From a virus (Duplodnaviria; Caudoviricetes): a stretch of DNA of 64,000 bases. The position numbers and the translations under genes are program-made. The stretch spans positions 1-64,000 of IMG/VR virus record IMGVR_UViG_3300033066_001396. One strand, given 5' to 3'. This document shows, piece by piece, positions 43,903 through 57,072 of this stretch (its first letter is position 1; every line of letters begins with the position of its first letter). The notes under the pieces were generated by a model. It saw only the letters and a program-made list of their open reading frames with translations. It did no database searches and was not told the origin of the DNA.

Positions 43903-44480
43903 TTGCTGATAAGGAAATAAAGTCATTGGGGTGGATACCACTGGTTTCTCACGGAGAAATCGTCAAAATGTATGTAATTGGATCTTTTGTTTTGGTAGCT
44001 ACAAAACAACATGTGGTTATTACGCAGAACGACAAAGGGAATCCATCTACAGTGTATAAGAGCGATGATGCTGACTGTTTTAGGATTAAGATAGTAATGC
44101 GGCATTTAAAAATACCAATTAATGGATCTTTAGACCCAATAGTGACGGCAACGGATACGCCAAGACAAGGAGAACCACTTGCTGAGACTCCAATAAAACC
44201 AACTGATGAGGTAAGGCCAAAACATGTATTTGATCGGTTTAGGGGAACTTATATAAAAGACCTGGGCCATATGGTTTTGGAGTGCAAAATATCTCTGTAT
44301 AGTTTAGTGGATCCAAAATTGTCACTTGAAATATCTTCCTACAGGGTAGGGGAAAAGGGAATTGTTATAGATAATAATGGCTGTCCAAAAGAAACATATT
44401 CTAACATTTCTTTTGTCATAGGCGTAGACCAGGCGGTGGAGGCATATTTTTTGGCTTTCCAAAAAACTCACTTGCTATGA
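43899..44480 (+). CDS. Hypothetical protein
   Basis: ATGA coupling. Confidence 0.65.
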   Translation: MIADKEIKSLGWIPLVSHGEIVKMYVIGSFVLVATKQHVVITQNDKGNPSTVYKSDDADCFRIKIVMRHLKIPINGSLDPIVTATDTPRQGEPLAETPIKPTDEVRPKHVFDRFRGTYIKDLGHMVLECKISLYSLVDPKLSLEISSYRVGEKGIVIDNNGCPKETYSNISFVIGVDQAVEAYFLAFQKTHLL

Positions 44481-45232
44481 AAGTAGTAATAGAATGTCTT
44501 GATGGAGGTGAAATAGTATCAGACTATTGCTTTAAGGGGTGTCTCGGTGCAAGAAATGCTGGACATGATGTGATATTGATGCCTTTGTCGCAATTATCGA
44601 TGGTTAAAGACAGATCTTTTTTAAAGGATGTAATGCCTATTGGATCTATAATGTATATGACTTGGTTTTTTAATTACGTTCATAACATGGAGGTTCCGGC
44701 GCCCTTAAAAGTTCATAAGGTCCCTGGCTTGTTTGATCTGAATTGGGCGGAAGTAGAGACTAAGGATAAAATACGATATCCATCGTTTGTCAAGCCGCTG
44801 AATGACATAAAAAAGTTCGCTGGTTTTGTAGCTAAGTCAATCGAAGATTTTGACTTATATCCTGAATTAAATGGCTGGGATGGACCATATTTCTGCTGTG
44901 AACCTAGGCGTTGTAATATTGATTCAGAGTGGAGAATATTTTATCACAGAGGAAAGATTGTAAACGTAAGTCATTATCGTGGAGATCCTATTGTTCTTCC
45001 AAATGATTTGTGGGGATCTGCCGGTGCCTTTACCAGGGATATTAATGATAACATAGAATCTTTGCCATTGGCCTTTACGGTTGACGTAGGCGTCGATATG
45101 GAGCAGGAATATACCTTTCCAATTGAGCTTAATGATATGTGGGCTATTGGTCCGTATGGATGTCCAGAGGACGTTTATTTTAAAATGCTTAAAGATCGTT
45201 GGTTTGAAATTTTAAAAGGAGATAAGATATGA
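44477..45232 (+). CDS. ATP-grasp protein (DUF4343/R2K-like)
   Basis: PIGSI, FVKP...KKFAGFV, SEWRIF, FTVDVG, IELND.WAIGPYG. Confidence 0.8.
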   Translation: MKVVIECLDGGEIVSDYCFKGCLGARNAGHDVILMPLSQLSMVKDRSFLKDVMPIGSIMYMTWFFNYVHNMEVPAPLKVHKVPGLFDLNWAEVETKDKIRYPSFVKPLNDIKKFAGFVAKSIEDFDLYPELNGWDGPYFCCEPRRCNIDSEWRIFYHRGKIVNVSHYRGDPIVLPNDLWGSAGAFTRDINDNIESLPLAFTVDVGVDMEQEYTFPIELNDMWAIGPYGCPEDVYFKMLKDRWFEILKGDKI

Positions 45233-46285: not shown

Positions 46286-46597
46286 ATGAAAGTATTATTA
46301 GAAGGCCACCGCTACATAGCGGCCAATTTTGAAAACCCAGACCATGGTCAGGTTATTCAGTTCATACACAAAGAGCCCATAGTTGCAGGGCAACCGGAAT
46401 TAGAAACCCTGAGTGATGGTACTACCAATGAAGAATTGTTGGCTGTGCTTATCGACAGGATCCAGTATCTTAATAAAAAATTCCCAAGCAGGGAAAATAG
46501 CATTGTGATCACAAAGCTCGAGGAGAGCCTTATGTGGTTGAATAAGAGGACTGCAGATCGTAAGAGTAGAAATGTTGAAGGCAAGGCAATGGTGTAG
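46286..46597 (+). CDS. tad1: Tad1-family anti-Thoeris cyclic-nucleotide sponge
   Basis: GHRY..IQF..GTTNEELL.VLIDR....FPSRENSIVITKLEESLMWLNKRTADR..RNVEG matches the Tad1 pattern HEY..IKFQ..G...DLL.IVRDR...F..RENA.ALT.VEEALMW..RR..DR..RNV.G. Confidence 0.82.
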   Translation: MKVLLEGHRYIAANFENPDHGQVIQFIHKEPIVAGQPELETLSDGTTNEELLAVLIDRIQYLNKKFPSRENSIVITKLEESLMWLNKRTADRKSRNVEGKAMV

Positions 46598-46600
46598 ACG

Positions 46601-46629
46601 AAGGCCGCGCTCCCTCAGCGGCCTTTTTT
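46601..46629 (+). terminator. Rho-independent terminator after tad1
   Basis: AAGGCCGC-GCTCCCTCA-GCGGCCTT-TTTT. Confidence 0.75.
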
Positions 46630-46641
46630 AAACTTTGAAAC

Positions 46642-47106
46642 ATGATAAGAGTTACAAAAAATCTTTATGTAGGAGACAAGAGCGAATACGCTAATGCTGT
46701 AGAGCATGGCGCCGCGATCGTGTGTGCTATGAATAACGGTGCAGGGAACTCATACCAGTCCAAAGTAGGCAAAAAAACTCCTGACCATCCAGACTACTTG
46801 TACAAGGAGGTGGGTAATGAGATTTACCTTAACATGATTGACGGCAAAGATCCTAAATATGTTCACGATGATATGATCGATGCCGCAGTGCGTTTTATTG
46901 ATCGGAAGATAAAGGATCAGAATGTTTTTATCTATTGCTCCAAGGGAGAGTCCAGGGCTCCCTCGCTGGCCATGATATACATGATGGACAAGGGGTTAAT
47001 CGCCAAAGACCGAACTGGAATAATGGAGTTTCACAGATTGTATCCTGGATATTTGCCAGGTGAGGGAATTAAAAAATATATCACTCATAGATATGGATTG
47101 AAATGA
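46642..47106 (+). CDS. Dual-specificity (CX5R) phosphatase-like protein
   Basis: NLYVG, VFIYCSKGESRAPSLAMIYM. Confidence 0.8.
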   Translation: MIRVTKNLYVGDKSEYANAVEHGAAIVCAMNNGAGNSYQSKVGKKTPDHPDYLYKEVGNEIYLNMIDGKDPKYVHDDMIDAAVRFIDRKIKDQNVFIYCSKGESRAPSLAMIYMMDKGLIAKDRTGIMEFHRLYPGYLPGEGIKKYITHRYGLK

Positions 47107-47336
47107 GCAATACAGTTAAAGAACTATTATACTGGATTGAACAAAATCCGCCGAAGGCAGAAGATTATGACTATACCATGATAGCCGGTGGAAAGTTTAT
47201 AGCAACCTACCAGGACTCGGTTCGAAGAAATAGTGGCATGTCAGATGACTTAGTTAAAGCACTAAGAGAGGCGGAAGGAATACCCGAAGGTGCCTATCAA
47301 TTCAAGTTGGTGGACATAATGAAAATAAGAAAATGA
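47103..47336 (+). CDS. Hypothetical protein
   Basis: ATGA coupling. Confidence 0.6.
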   Translation: MSNTVKELLYWIEQNPPKAEDYDYTMIAGGKFIATYQDSVRRNSGMSDDLVKALREAEGIPEGAYQFKLVDIMKIRK

Positions 47337-47800
47337 CCCAACCCGAACTAATACGATCGAAGTATTCAGAAACAGGCCAGCGCCTAATGCTGTGTGATTT
47401 TTGGGATACCAGCAGGACGAACATTTTGTTCATTGACCTTGTTCCTCCTAACGAAGAAAGAGAAAAGTACTTTACGGACATTGCTAAGTCACATAAGTTT
47501 GGGGGAATATACCTATGCAGTGTTTTCCCCTGTATGATTGATAGTCCCTCAGACGATCAGCTTATAGCCTCCGGCAGCGCAGAAAACGACATGACCATTA
47601 TGCAGAGTTCTCTTAAATGCAGTACTGTGGTATTTGCCTGGGATAGCACATTGCCACAGACTACGGGACGAGACCTTGAGCTTTTTAAAATTATAAAATA
47701 CGCCCCGACAATGTATCATTCGAAAATAAAGATACTTAAGCGGCAAACAGATTTATTGTCTCGTGGGCCATTGTTATTACCTTATCCAGAAAATAAATAA
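47333..47800 (+). CDS. DUF1643-like protein
   Basis: R..L...WD....ILFI.L.P, FGGIY..SVFP, END, VVFAW. Confidence 0.55.
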   Translation: MTQPELIRSKYSETGQRLMLCDFWDTSRTNILFIDLVPPNEEREKYFTDIAKSHKFGGIYLCSVFPCMIDSPSDDQLIASGSAENDMTIMQSSLKCSTVVFAWDSTLPQTTGRDLELFKIIKYAPTMYHSKIKILKRQTDLLSRGPLLLPYPENK

Positions 47801-50341: not shown

Positions 50342-50413
50342 GTGAACGTAGCTCAGCGGTAGAGCAGTGGACTCTAAATCCACCGGTCATGGGTTCAACT
50401 CCCATCGTTCGCT
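50342..50413 (+). tRNA. Amber-suppressor tRNA, anticodon CTA (reads UAG); amino-acid identity uncertain
   Basis: Full cloverleaf: GTGAACG/CGTTCGC, D-arm GCTC-AGCGGTA-GAGC, anticodon arm GTGGA-CTCTAAA-TCCAC (CTA at 50374-50376), T-arm ATGGG-TTCAACT-CCCAT, U73, no encoded CCA. Confidence 0.9.
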
Positions 50414-50426
50414 CAAAATATCAGCC

Positions 50427-52787: not shown

Positions 52788-53252
52788 ATGAAATCAGGAG
52801 TAGAACTTATTGCCGAAGAAAGACTGGAACAGATCTTAAAACACGGCATAACAACTGAAAGAGATGTTGAAGAAAATTGTGATTATCAGTTACGTATTGG
52901 AGCAATGCGATTAATTGGTGATCGAGATGATTATCCTGCCCCTAATGGATGGAATAAGGCTCTGTGGGCTAAGATGATATCTAAACCACACAAAGATCGA
53001 TTGATAATTGCCGGTGCTTTGATAGCTGCTGAAATTGACCGGATTCAGGAAGCGGAGAAAGACAAAAATGTCGAACCCAAATCAAAAACCTACCAAGAGA
53101 TGCAAATGCTCTTAACCCTTTATAGCATAGATCACAAGGTAATAGACCTTACTGAGGACGGTAATGGTTATGGTAAGGTGATCTGCATTAAAAACGAAGA
53201 CCTGAAAAAGCTTGAATATTTAAAACAAATCTCAAACGAATTAAACCAATGA
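52788..53252 (+). CDS. Conserved phage hypothetical protein
   Basis: GVELIAEER..Q..KHG.T.E.D; LIIAGALIAAEIDR. Confidence 0.7.
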   Translation: MKSGVELIAEERLEQILKHGITTERDVEENCDYQLRIGAMRLIGDRDDYPAPNGWNKALWAKMISKPHKDRLIIAGALIAAEIDRIQEAEKDKNVEPKSKTYQEMQMLLTLYSIDHKVIDLTEDGNGYGKVICIKNEDLKKLEYLKQISNELNQ

Positions 53253-53611
53253 ACAGAAGTACTTTTTTAAAAACGCTCTTTGGGCTGACCCTGGCTCCCT
53301 TCGTCCCGGTCCACAAAAAACCAACCACATACAAATTTATGAGCCCAGACGTACTTCTCGGAGGCACCAGCTGGATACAAGAAAACTGTCACCGCTCCTA
53401 TTCTATATCCCGGGATCCGGTAAATTCCTTTGAGTATGTGGATCGAAGCTTTACTGGTAACTCCATCTATCATCCTGGCACAGGATTCTTTGAGTACGCG
53501 GATACGCAAAATATGTACCTTTTTGACTCACAAAAACTTACCATGGGAAAATTGTCAAAAATGTTTGTTGAATTAGAAAAAACAAAAAAGTATCTTAGCA
53601 CCATGAAATAG
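53249..53611 (+). CDS. Hypothetical protein with degenerate Tat-like N-terminus; ends at the TAG inside the Pth2-like frame
   Basis: MNRSTFLKTLFGL...; in frame with 53603..53947. Confidence 0.6.
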   Translation: MNRSTFLKTLFGLTLAPFVPVHKKPTTYKFMSPDVLLGGTSWIQENCHRSYSISRDPVNSFEYVDRSFTGNSIYHPGTGFFEYADTQNMYLFDSQKLTMGKLSKMFVELEKTKKYLSTMK

Positions 53612-53947
53612 ATTAAATTAATCACCGTCGTCCGGAATGATCTTGTCCCAGGATCGCAGCTTGTTCAGTCAATGCACGCAGCCATGGACTTCGCCCACAA
53701 CTATTCACACTTACCTTCATATATTGCCTGGCGCGACAGCCTTTATATCGTAAGTCTGTCAACATCTCAGAAATCACTATTCGCTCTATGCGACAAGCTT
53801 GACAGCCTGCAGATCATTTACCAGCCATTTACCGAGCCCGACATGGGCAACGAACTGACGGCAATATGTATCGAGCCTACTGATGCGGCACTGAAGGCAG
53901 TATCTCATTTACCACTAGCATTAAACAATTTAAATCAAATATTATGA
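53603..53947 (+). CDS. Pth2-like (peptidyl-tRNA hydrolase II fold) protein with in-frame amber at codon 3
   Basis: ATG AAA TAG then IKLITVVRNDLVPGSQLVQSMHAA...YIVSL...FTEPDMGNELTAICIEP...VSHLPL; the family N-terminal motif lies upstream of the track start 53672. Confidence 0.8.
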
Positions 53948-55824: not shown

Positions 55825-56472
55825 ATGAAATGTACAAGATGCGGCAAAGAAGCCTATAATCACCGCCGCTGTGATGCCTGCATAAGGAAATGGACTGACA
55901 TGAGAGCCACAATATGGGAAACCCTCACCATCAAATACGGAAAATTCTCCCCAGAGAACATCAAAGAATGGCAAAAGGAAACCAGAAAGCTCGAAAACAT
56001 ATGGAAAAAGGACGAAACCAAATTCACAGAAGCTATAAACAAAATCCACATGACAGACTGCTACTTCATCCCCTCAAAAGAATCCTCTTCCGCAACCATC
56101 TGCGCTAACTGCGGCCAAGAAAAAATGGTACACACCGCAGGCGAAGGCCTTAAAGCAAGTAAAGTCATCATGAACTTTACCCAAGAAGAACAAACAGAAC
56201 TCCAAAGGCTCTCAACTATCATCCACTACAAACAACCCACATATGACGACCTGGAAAAAGCCGACGCCCTTTCAAGGAAAAAAATTGGGTATCAACAGAG
56301 CCTCAAGCCAGTAACCCTTACGCGCATCCCCCATAAATTCAAAAAAATCCTTGTAAAAAAAGACGGTTCCACCTGGCACCTATCTAACTCCGAAGTAAAA
56401 GACTGGGAGAAAGCCGGCTCAATATCCCCGGGCGACATACTTTACCGAATAGTCACCGACACCCTTTACTAG
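55825..56472 (+). CDS. Hypothetical protein with CxxC motifs
   Basis: CTRCG..CDAC..CANCG; TAG stop directly followed by an in-frame ATG. Confidence 0.6.
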   Translation: MKCTRCGKEAYNHRRCDACIRKWTDMRATIWETLTIKYGKFSPENIKEWQKETRKLENIWKKDETKFTEAINKIHMTDCYFIPSKESSSATICANCGQEKMVHTAGEGLKASKVIMNFTQEEQTELQRLSTIIHYKQPTYDDLEKADALSRKKIGYQQSLKPVTLTRIPHKFKKILVKKDGSTWHLSNSEVKDWEKAGSISPGDILYRIVTDTLY

Positions 56473-56973
56473 ATGAAAAAAATTACAGCCAACGACATAA
56501 GCCGACAACTGATAGGGTGGGTGCAGTCTTCCGGAGCCGAAATATGCATACCCAACTACTACTACGGACCCTATGAAATGGACTTGTTCCGCCTTACAAC
56601 CTCTGGCTACGTATATGAATACGAAATAAAAGTATCGTTACAAGACTTTCGAAAAGACCTGGCAAAATCACAAAAGGTGTATAACCGGTCTGAAACAAAA
56701 AAACACGAGACAATGGCCTCAGGAACCGCAACACCCAACAAGTTCTATTTCGTCGTCCCAGAAAACCTAGTACCCCTAAAAGAGATCCCCCCATATGCCG
56801 GCCTCATCTGCTTCTGCAGATCCCGACCATTTCTAAAAACAATTAAGCCCGCCCCCTTTATTCACCGCAACCCATTCCCCCAAGACAACTATAAGAAAAT
56901 AGCTCTCTCCCTTTCCTGGCGCGAAATAAGACTGCGCTCAAAGATAATCAGACTCACAAAGCCTTCTACGTAG
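56473..56973 (+). CDS. MmcB-like PD-(D/E)xK nuclease-fold protein
   Basis: EMDLF...YVYEYEIKVSLQDFRKD, PNKFYFVVP, PPYAGLI. Confidence 0.7.
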   Translation: MKKITANDISRQLIGWVQSSGAEICIPNYYYGPYEMDLFRLTTSGYVYEYEIKVSLQDFRKDLAKSQKVYNRSETKKHETMASGTATPNKFYFVVPENLVPLKEIPPYAGLICFCRSRPFLKTIKPAPFIHRNPFPQDNYKKIALSLSWREIRLRSKIIRLTKPST

Positions 56974-57072
56974 ATACCATCCTCCATCCCTCTTTTCAAG
57001 CTCTCTTTTCCTTAACCCCCCCACATACGCTAAAGTTCCGACCTTAAGAACGCTCAGCTAACTTAACACCTG

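What the first reader, a model, noticed from the sequence alone, without database searches (positions are those of the whole stretch)
53603..53947. Pth2-like gene gated by an in-frame amber at codon 3 (ATG-AAA-TAG): suppressor-tRNA-controlled translation-rescue switch
Seen: the family N-terminal motif (IKLITVVRNDL.PG.QLVQS.HAA) begins directly after TAG 53609-53611, and the only ATG upstream of it is two codons before the TAG. A full-length protein therefore needs readthrough, and a UAG-reading tRNA lies 3.2 kb upstream. Established: Pth enzymes recycle dropped-off peptidyl-tRNA, and two-codon minigenes (lambda bar) generate peptidyl-tRNA that burdens Pth. Inference: unsuppressed, the locus is a Met-Lys minigene; suppressed, it makes a Pth2-like factor. 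Output would then depend on suppressor tRNA versus RF1 competition. Caveats: the canonical Pth2 catalytic Lys is not evident, and readthrough could instead fuse the upstream 120-aa ORF to the domain.
Basis: partly seen in the sequence, partly recalled or inferred. Interest (0 to 1): 0.9.

Follow-up and report, generated by a model that had tools for sequence, protein, structure and literature searches.

The report
Amber-gated phage Pth2-like gene
A phage with the normal genetic code keeps a UAG stop as codon 3 of a small tRNA-hydrolase-like gene and carries its own UAG-reading tRNA; dozens of distant phages, some lab-grown, keep this pairing, so the protein is probably made only when that tRNA overrides the stop, which gives these puzzling tRNAs a target.

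Summary
Confirmed: ATG-AAA-TAG (53603-53611) opens a 111-codon Pth2-fold frame. A CUA tRNA lies 3.2 kb upstream on the same strand, in a 124.6-kb standard-code phage.

The stop is conserved. Of 97 family loci, 64 have an early TAG and 2 an early TAA, against 0 of 101 canonical phage Pth2 genes. 59 of the 64 have a CUA tRNA; both TAA-gated phages have a UUA tRNA. Gates inside the domain and a shared UAG-purine-U context favour readthrough over reinitiation. Cultured Bxz1, Myrna, XacN1 and RsoM2USA are gated too; the XacN1 and RsoM2USA papers named no target for their suppressor tRNAs.

Not supported: a Met-Lys minigene burdening Pth (codon 2 and gate position vary) and canonical Pth2 chemistry (catalytic Lys and DAGxT replaced; several phages also carry a canonical Pth2). 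Ungated members still sit beside the tRNA (21/28), so the protein probably acts on the suppressor system, most likely as a brake (inferred).

No expression data. I found no paper describing it. This scan has noted it on other DNA many times (260 notes, at least 172 genomes).

The parts
53603..53947 (+). Amber-gated Pth2-fold gene; readthrough product M-K-X plus 111 aa (114 aa)
53609..53614 (+). Gate: in-frame TAG at codon 3 with the family's 3' context (TAG-ATT; purine then U)
50342..50414 (+). tRNA with CUA anticodon (amber-suppressor type; G1:C72, U2.G71, U73, short variable loop, no encoded CCA). ARAGORN's 'Pyl' label follows from the anticodon only
53249..53611 (+). Upstream 120-aa ORF of unknown function that ends at the same TAG. 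It could feed ribosomes to the gate by coupling or give a 232-aa fusion
53672..53674 (+). Internal ATG used by gene callers (91-aa truncated call, P0002); lacks strand 1 and R8, D10, Q16, Q19

Best explanation
The gene is a stop-codon-gated partner of the phage's own suppressor tRNA. Ribosomes start at ATG 53603, or arrive from the upstream ORF, and meet UAG at codon 3. RF1 ends most of them. Only when charged phage tRNA-CUA out-competes RF1 is the 114-aa Pth2-fold protein made (gating about 0.85 likely; shown by comparative genomics, not by expression). The protein most likely acts on the suppressor system itself: it binds or deacylates aminoacyl- or peptidyl-tRNA-CUA with a rebuilt active site, and so caps suppression. 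That would be a negative feedback loop like prfB autoregulation. This step is inferred; the confidence given is for the whole chain.
For: Gate in 64/97 family loci against 0/101 canonical phage Pth2. The gated proteins are diverse: median identity 44%, 23 clusters at 60%. CUA tRNA in 59/64 gated records, plus 4 atypical CTA-centred elements. Both TAA-gated genes, which lie apart on the tree, have a UUA tRNA. TAGs inside the domain in L001, L034 and L044 share the 3' context. Purine-U after the gate in 53/65, against 12/89 and 12/102 ordinary TAG gene ends. Neighbouring HD-domain and other partner genes are gated too. The sister phage shows 14 synonymous and 3 non-synonymous changes behind the TAG. 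Ungated members still lie beside a CUA tRNA in 21/28 loci, so the link goes beyond needing the tRNA for translation. Pth2 fold, Z 14.6, rmsd 1.8 over 103 residues, with invariant or near-invariant Q16, Q19, H22, W40, E75, D77, T83. TAG stays an ordinary stop in these genomes, so suppression needs a limit.
Against: No RNA, ribosome or protein data. Whether the tRNA is made, charged, and with which residue is unknown; its acceptor identity elements vary across the family. The catalytic Lys is gone, so hydrolase activity is unproven. About 30% of members have no early gate. Phage Summit has a suppressor tRNA but no family gene. In this phage the tRNA is 3.2 kb away and the partner genes are absent. 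The sign of the feedback cannot be read from sequence.
Confidence: 0.45

Rival explanations
1. Readthrough-gated, but the product is an output aimed elsewhere. The gate senses RF1 shortage, infection stage or damage to tRNAs by host defence, and switches on a factor acting on host translation or on a defence system.
For: Several partner genes share the gate, which looks like a small amber regulon. The loci often lie in tRNA arrays. PMC12386605 proposes a counter-defence role for 'non-functioning' phage suppressor tRNAs.
Against: Does not by itself explain why ungated members stay next to the tRNA (21/28). No defence-system match was shown for the partners.
Confidence: 0.2
2. Readthrough-gated positive loop: the protein helps charge, edit or protect the suppressor tRNA, giving a switch-like onset of suppression.
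For: Rebuilt active site with a new invariant Asp. The tRNAs lack one fixed synthetase identity. No release factor gene found in this genome.
Against: It needs leaky start-up. Strong suppression should be costly where TAG is a normal stop. The Pth2 fold is known as a hydrolase (own knowledge).
Confidence: 0.15
3. One reading: unsuppressed, a Met-Lys minigene causes peptidyl-tRNA drop-off that burdens host Pth; suppressed, a canonical-type Pth2 rescues translation.
For: Codon-3 gates are the commonest (30 of 64) and Lys often precedes them. The fold is Pth2.
Against: Gate position (codon 2-10, or inside the domain) and the preceding codon vary. Catalytic motif replaced. A canonical ungated Pth2 coexists in the same genomes.
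Confidence: 0.08
4. No readthrough: the short ORF is a leader, and ribosomes reinitiate at the ATT or GTG after the TAG, or at an internal ATG.
For: ATT follows 35 of 65 gates. In cluster C mycobacteriophages a GTG follows the TAG and is the annotated start.
Against: Many gates are followed by GTA, GTT, ACA, ACT, AAT or AGC, which are not start codons. TAGs inside the domain with the same context cannot be bypassed by reinitiation. It does not explain the TAG/CUA and TAA/UUA matching.
Confidence: 0.08
5. Sequencing error or pseudogene.
For: Reads could not be checked.
Against: Same TAG in a sister phage, with purifying selection behind it, and in more than 60 distant phages.
Confidence: 0.02

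Closest known systems
Stop-codon-recoded phages with suppressor tRNAs (code 15 Lak and crAss-like, code 4; 10.1101/2021.08.26.457843)
   Same: A phage tRNA that reads a stop codon is proposed to control expression of phage genes holding in-frame stops.
   Different: There, many late and lysis genes are recoded. Here the genome uses the standard code, structural genes have no in-frame TAG, TAG ends ordinary genes, and one translation-related gene is gated. That preprint does not mention a hydrolase.
Orphan suppressor tRNAs of standard-code phages: XacN1 (PMC5852040), RsoM2USA (PMC8504454), Summit (PMC9022506), Zeta crAss-like (PMC12386605)
   Same: CUA tRNA in a phage without recoding.
   Different: Those papers named no target gene. 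I find a gated family gene in XacN1 (ATG AAG TAG upstream of ORF364) and in RsoM2USA (ATG TTG TAG, unannotated), but none in Summit.
Pth2 peptidyl-tRNA hydrolase (PF01981; archaeal and eukaryotic; in jumbo phages, PMC7824862)
   Same: Fold (Z 14.6 to 1wn2) and the Q-x-x-H-A and T-A motifs.
   Different: GK of the first motif and DAGxT are replaced by G-x-Q and EPD; the gene has an early stop; it is tied to a suppressor tRNA.
prfB (RF2) autoregulation through an early in-frame UGA (own knowledge)
   Same: A translation-factor gene reports on termination versus bypass at its own early stop.
   Different: prfB bypasses by +1 frameshift and senses a release factor. Here bypass is in-frame decoding by a phage tRNA.
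Lambda bar minigenes (own knowledge)
   Same: ATG-one codon-stop layout in the commonest form.
   Different: A conserved folded domain follows in frame, and the gate's position and preceding codon vary.

Membership tests
Pth2 (canonical peptidyl-tRNA hydrolase 2) | Pth2 alpha/beta fold | tested here: met
   AF2 pLDDT 96.9, pTM 0.89; Foldseek E 3e-7 to MJ0051; Z 14.6, rmsd 1.8, 103 aligned to 1wn2
Pth2 (canonical peptidyl-tRNA hydrolase 2) | Pfam PF01981 at the gathering cut-off | tested here: not met
   19.2 bits against 23 for the window protein; some relatives pass
Pth2 (canonical peptidyl-tRNA hydrolase 2) | Catalytic Lys in GKxxAQxxHA (catalytic role from own knowledge) | tested here: not met
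   Aligned position is Ser here; Y, A, L, Q, D, S cover 77 of 84 family members
Pth2 (canonical peptidyl-tRNA hydrolase 2) | DAGxT motif (catalytic Asp and Thr; own knowledge) | tested here: not met
   Replaced by EPD (E 83/84, D 84/84); the downstream TA Thr is kept
Pth2 (canonical peptidyl-tRNA hydrolase 2) | Hydrolyses peptidyl-tRNA | not testable with these tools
   needs an enzyme assay
Stop-codon-recoded phage (code 15) | In-frame TAG throughout structural and late genes | tested here: not met
   Terminase, capsid and other long genes have 0 in-frame TAG; ORF coverage 80% against 83% with TAG read as sense; TAG ends 12 of 161 ORFs
Amber suppressor tRNA | Cloverleaf with CUA centred in a 7-nt loop | tested here: met
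Amber suppressor tRNA | Expressed, aminoacylated, reads UAG | not testable with these tools
Pyrrolysine system | tRNA-Pyl architecture and pylS/pylBCD genes | tested here: inconclusive
   Best Rfam match is generic tRNA RF00005 with a normal D-arm and variable loop; pyl genes were not searched for
Lambda bar-type minigene | Fixed two-codon ORF without a downstream in-frame product | tested here: not met
   Gate at codon 2-10 or inside the domain; conserved domain follows in frame

The most novel reading that the evidence does not exclude
A widespread phage module in which a suppressor tRNA and a Pth2-fold enzyme with a rebuilt active site form a self-regulating circuit: the tRNA licenses the enzyme's translation through a stop codon, and the enzyme sets the tRNA's charged level. 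It would be a natural homeostat for stop-codon suppression, and perhaps the stepping stone to whole-genome recoding (Lak phages keep the gene beside a UUA tRNA).
Probability: 0.35. Interest if true: 0.92.

Novelty: new variant of a known kind. Interest (0 to 1): 0.8.

Why it matters
Several papers state that the purpose or target of suppressor tRNAs in standard-code phages is unknown (PMC5852040, PMC9022506, PMC12386605). This gives a concrete, conserved target that gene callers truncate or miss. It is present in lab-grown phages (Bxz1 and relatives on M. smegmatis mc2 155), so the question can be tested directly. It also points to a Pth2-fold subfamily with a different active site, and to a natural stop-codon switch relevant to how recoding starts and to genetic-code engineering.

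Tried and rejected
A degenerate DNA pattern for the C-terminal motif, blind to the gate, was used instead. Word-based homolog search returned only the self hit.

Ten literature searches gave no description of the pairing; most subscription papers are not held. The Pth2 catalytic residues could not be confirmed from a held paper and rest on my own knowledge.

Promoter and terminator scans were at chance level. No RNA structure at the gate (z 0.3). A single-sequence fold of the HD partner failed (pLDDT 36). Partner families and release factors were not found in this genome, which is about 80% complete. P0154's contig looks chimeric and says nothing about the fusion. The sister-phage comparison has only one change in codons 4-23, so it does not itself prove that stretch is coding; family conservation does. 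Fisher tests ignore kinship and are not relied on. Genome-wide recoding was rejected.

Full report
Observation. The window is the first 64 kb of a 124,566-base virus record with terminase and major capsid genes. It uses the standard code: long genes hold no in-frame TAG, and 161 ORFs end in TAA 84, TGA 65 and TAG 12. ATG AAA TAG ATT lies at 53603-53614, followed by 111 open codons to TGA 53945-47. The TAG is also the stop of a 120-aa ORF from 53249. A CUA tRNA lies at 50342-50414 on the same strand. It is one of three tRNAs in the genome, and this is the only early-TAG gene with a recognisable family.

The protein. It has the Pth2 fold: pLDDT 96.9, Foldseek E 3e-7 to MJ0051, Z 14.6 and rmsd 1.8 to Pyrococcus Pth2. 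It belongs to a large, almost wholly viral family: 680 representatives at E 0.001 or better, clusters 94-97% viral, and only 10 motif hits in 185,579 prokaryote genomes. Against solved Pth2s, the Lys of GKxxAQxxHA is replaced by a variable residue followed by a conserved Gln, and DAGxT becomes EPD. That these are the catalytic residues is my own knowledge. The family keeps its own near-invariant set (R8, D10, Q16, Q19, H22, W40, E75, D77, T83), so it is under constraint but is not a canonical Pth2. Starting at ATG 53672 removes strand 1 and four of these residues; the Atlas model of that form is poor (pTM 0.37).

The gate is conserved. All six first homologs read had an early TAG. A motif scan blind to the N-terminus brought the set to 97 distinct loci. 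64 have ATG then TAG at codon 2-10 (30 at codon 3), 2 have TAA, none has TGA, 2 have TAG without a near ATG, and 29 are open or fused. Gated proteins have a median identity of 44% and form 23 clusters at 60%. On the tree the gate is spread over most branches, with at least 6 changes forced by well-supported forks (three rows with a second, internal TAG were left out). As a control, 101 canonical phage Pth2 genes had no early TAG; 6 had a CUA tRNA nearby, and 3 of those 6 (one weak) have this family's gene there. Database proteins that start with an apparent Gln at this place are TAG=Q calls with a CUA tRNA close by. A sister phage at about 80-90% nucleotide identity keeps the gate and the tRNA, with 14 synonymous and 3 non-synonymous changes.

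The key matches the lock. A CUA tRNA lay on the same strand in the fetched DNA of 53 of 64 gated loci. Whole-record follow-up added 6 typical and 4 atypical CTA-centred elements, leaving one 16-kb fragment without. Both TAA-gated genes have a UUA tRNA and lie apart on the tree. L101's nearest relatives have TAG, three of four with a CUA tRNA at nearly the same position.

Readthrough rather than restart. ATT follows 35 of 65 gates, which raises reinitiation. But GTA, GTT, ACA and other non-start codons follow many others, and TAGs inside the domain (L001, L034, and L044 where it is the only one) are followed by ATT or GTA as well. Purine-U follows 53/65 gates against 12/89 and 12/102 ordinary TAG gene ends. 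A 3' purine favours amber suppression (own knowledge). Partner genes near the family gene, an HD-domain protein and a small FHFNK-motif protein, are gated in several loci.

Cultured phages. Bxz1 and Cane17 read ATG TAG GTG and Myrna GTG TAG GTG, each with a CUA tRNA just downstream. GenBank starts these genes at the GTG, which remains a real alternative for them. XacN1, whose authors found no target for two CUA tRNAs (PMC5852040), has ATG AAG TAG behind a Shine-Dalgarno-like AGAGG, 21 bases before annotated ORF364, an HD-Pth2-like fusion. RsoM2USA (PMC8504454) has an unannotated ATG TTG TAG ATT gene. Both also carry a canonical Pth2. Summit has the tRNA but no family match, so the module does not explain every orphan suppressor.

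Mechanism. Shown by comparison: a conserved stop, a matching tRNA, a selected context and a constrained product. Inferred: gating by competition between the tRNA and RF1 (about 0.85). The role of the product is less certain. Ungated members remain beside a CUA tRNA in 21 of 28 loci, and Lak phages, where TAG is sense, keep the ungated gene beside a UUA tRNA. This ties the protein's job to the suppressor tRNA. TAG is still a normal stop in these phages, so a brake is the most economical reading (whole chain 0.45). An output aimed elsewhere (0.2) and a helper loop (0.15) remain open. The minigene-burden idea is weak because codon 2 and the gate position vary. The inserted residue is unknown: the anticodon loop is conserved but the acceptor and discriminator are not (A73 49, U 16, G 15). 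Host LysRS or GlnRS, which read U35, are the usual chargers of amber tRNAs (own knowledge). In this lineage the upstream ORF shares the TAG in both phages although its middle differs, so some 232-aa fusion or coupled restart at 53603 is possible; most relatives start on their own.

Novelty. Ten searches of the open library found no description of the pairing. The closest are recoded phages, orphan suppressor reports and prfB. The scan has noted the same module on other DNA many times. I recorded my reading before looking and count those notes as leads only. Verdict: a real, widespread and apparently unpublished variant of stop-codon control, with an untested mechanism; interest 0.8.

Noticed in passing
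window 55825-57015 (+): A 215-aa gene ends in TAG directly followed in frame by the ATG of a 166-aa gene, which also ends TAG-ATA; readthrough would give a 396-aa fusion.
   Followed up: no
window 46286-46645 (+): An Acb2/Tad1-hairpin-like gene (Pfam E 1e-7) ends in TAG. Readthrough adds 15 aa and ends in a TGA overlapping the start of a phosphatase-like gene (46642). The sister phage keeps this TAG.
   Followed up: partly
G000:C1:75162-75392 (outside window, L302): A 76-aa ORF ends in TAG in frame with a long cytosine-methyltransferase-like frame (634 codons to the next TAA or TGA).
   Followed up: no
L019, L080, L125 (760-1030 bases upstream of the family gene): A second copy of the gated 5' end of the Pth2-like gene runs into an endonuclease-like frame, suggesting a homing element inserted at this gene.
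   Followed up: no
L071, L079, L082, L004, L032, L318: HD-domain partner (phrog_14850), separate or fused to the Pth2-like domain, often with its own early TAG; absent from this genome.
   Followed up: partly
L016, L053, L086, L313 (Lak-like phages): Ungated family gene with a UUA (ochre) tRNA about 0.7 kb upstream, in phages of a group known to read TAG as sense.
   Followed up: partly
L288, L295, L296, L298: Huge phages carry atypical CTA-centred tRNA-like elements that ARAGORN misses or mislabels at default settings.
   Followed up: partly
window 44477-45232 and 46642-47800 (+): R2K-clade ATP-grasp gene, dual-specificity-phosphatase-like gene and DUF1643 gene in the same gene run as the CUA tRNA.
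   Followed up: no
L278-L287: The few hits in prokaryote genome assemblies are MAG contigs, several of jumbo-phage size; six of the nine readable ones are gated, and most have a CUA tRNA.
   Followed up: partly
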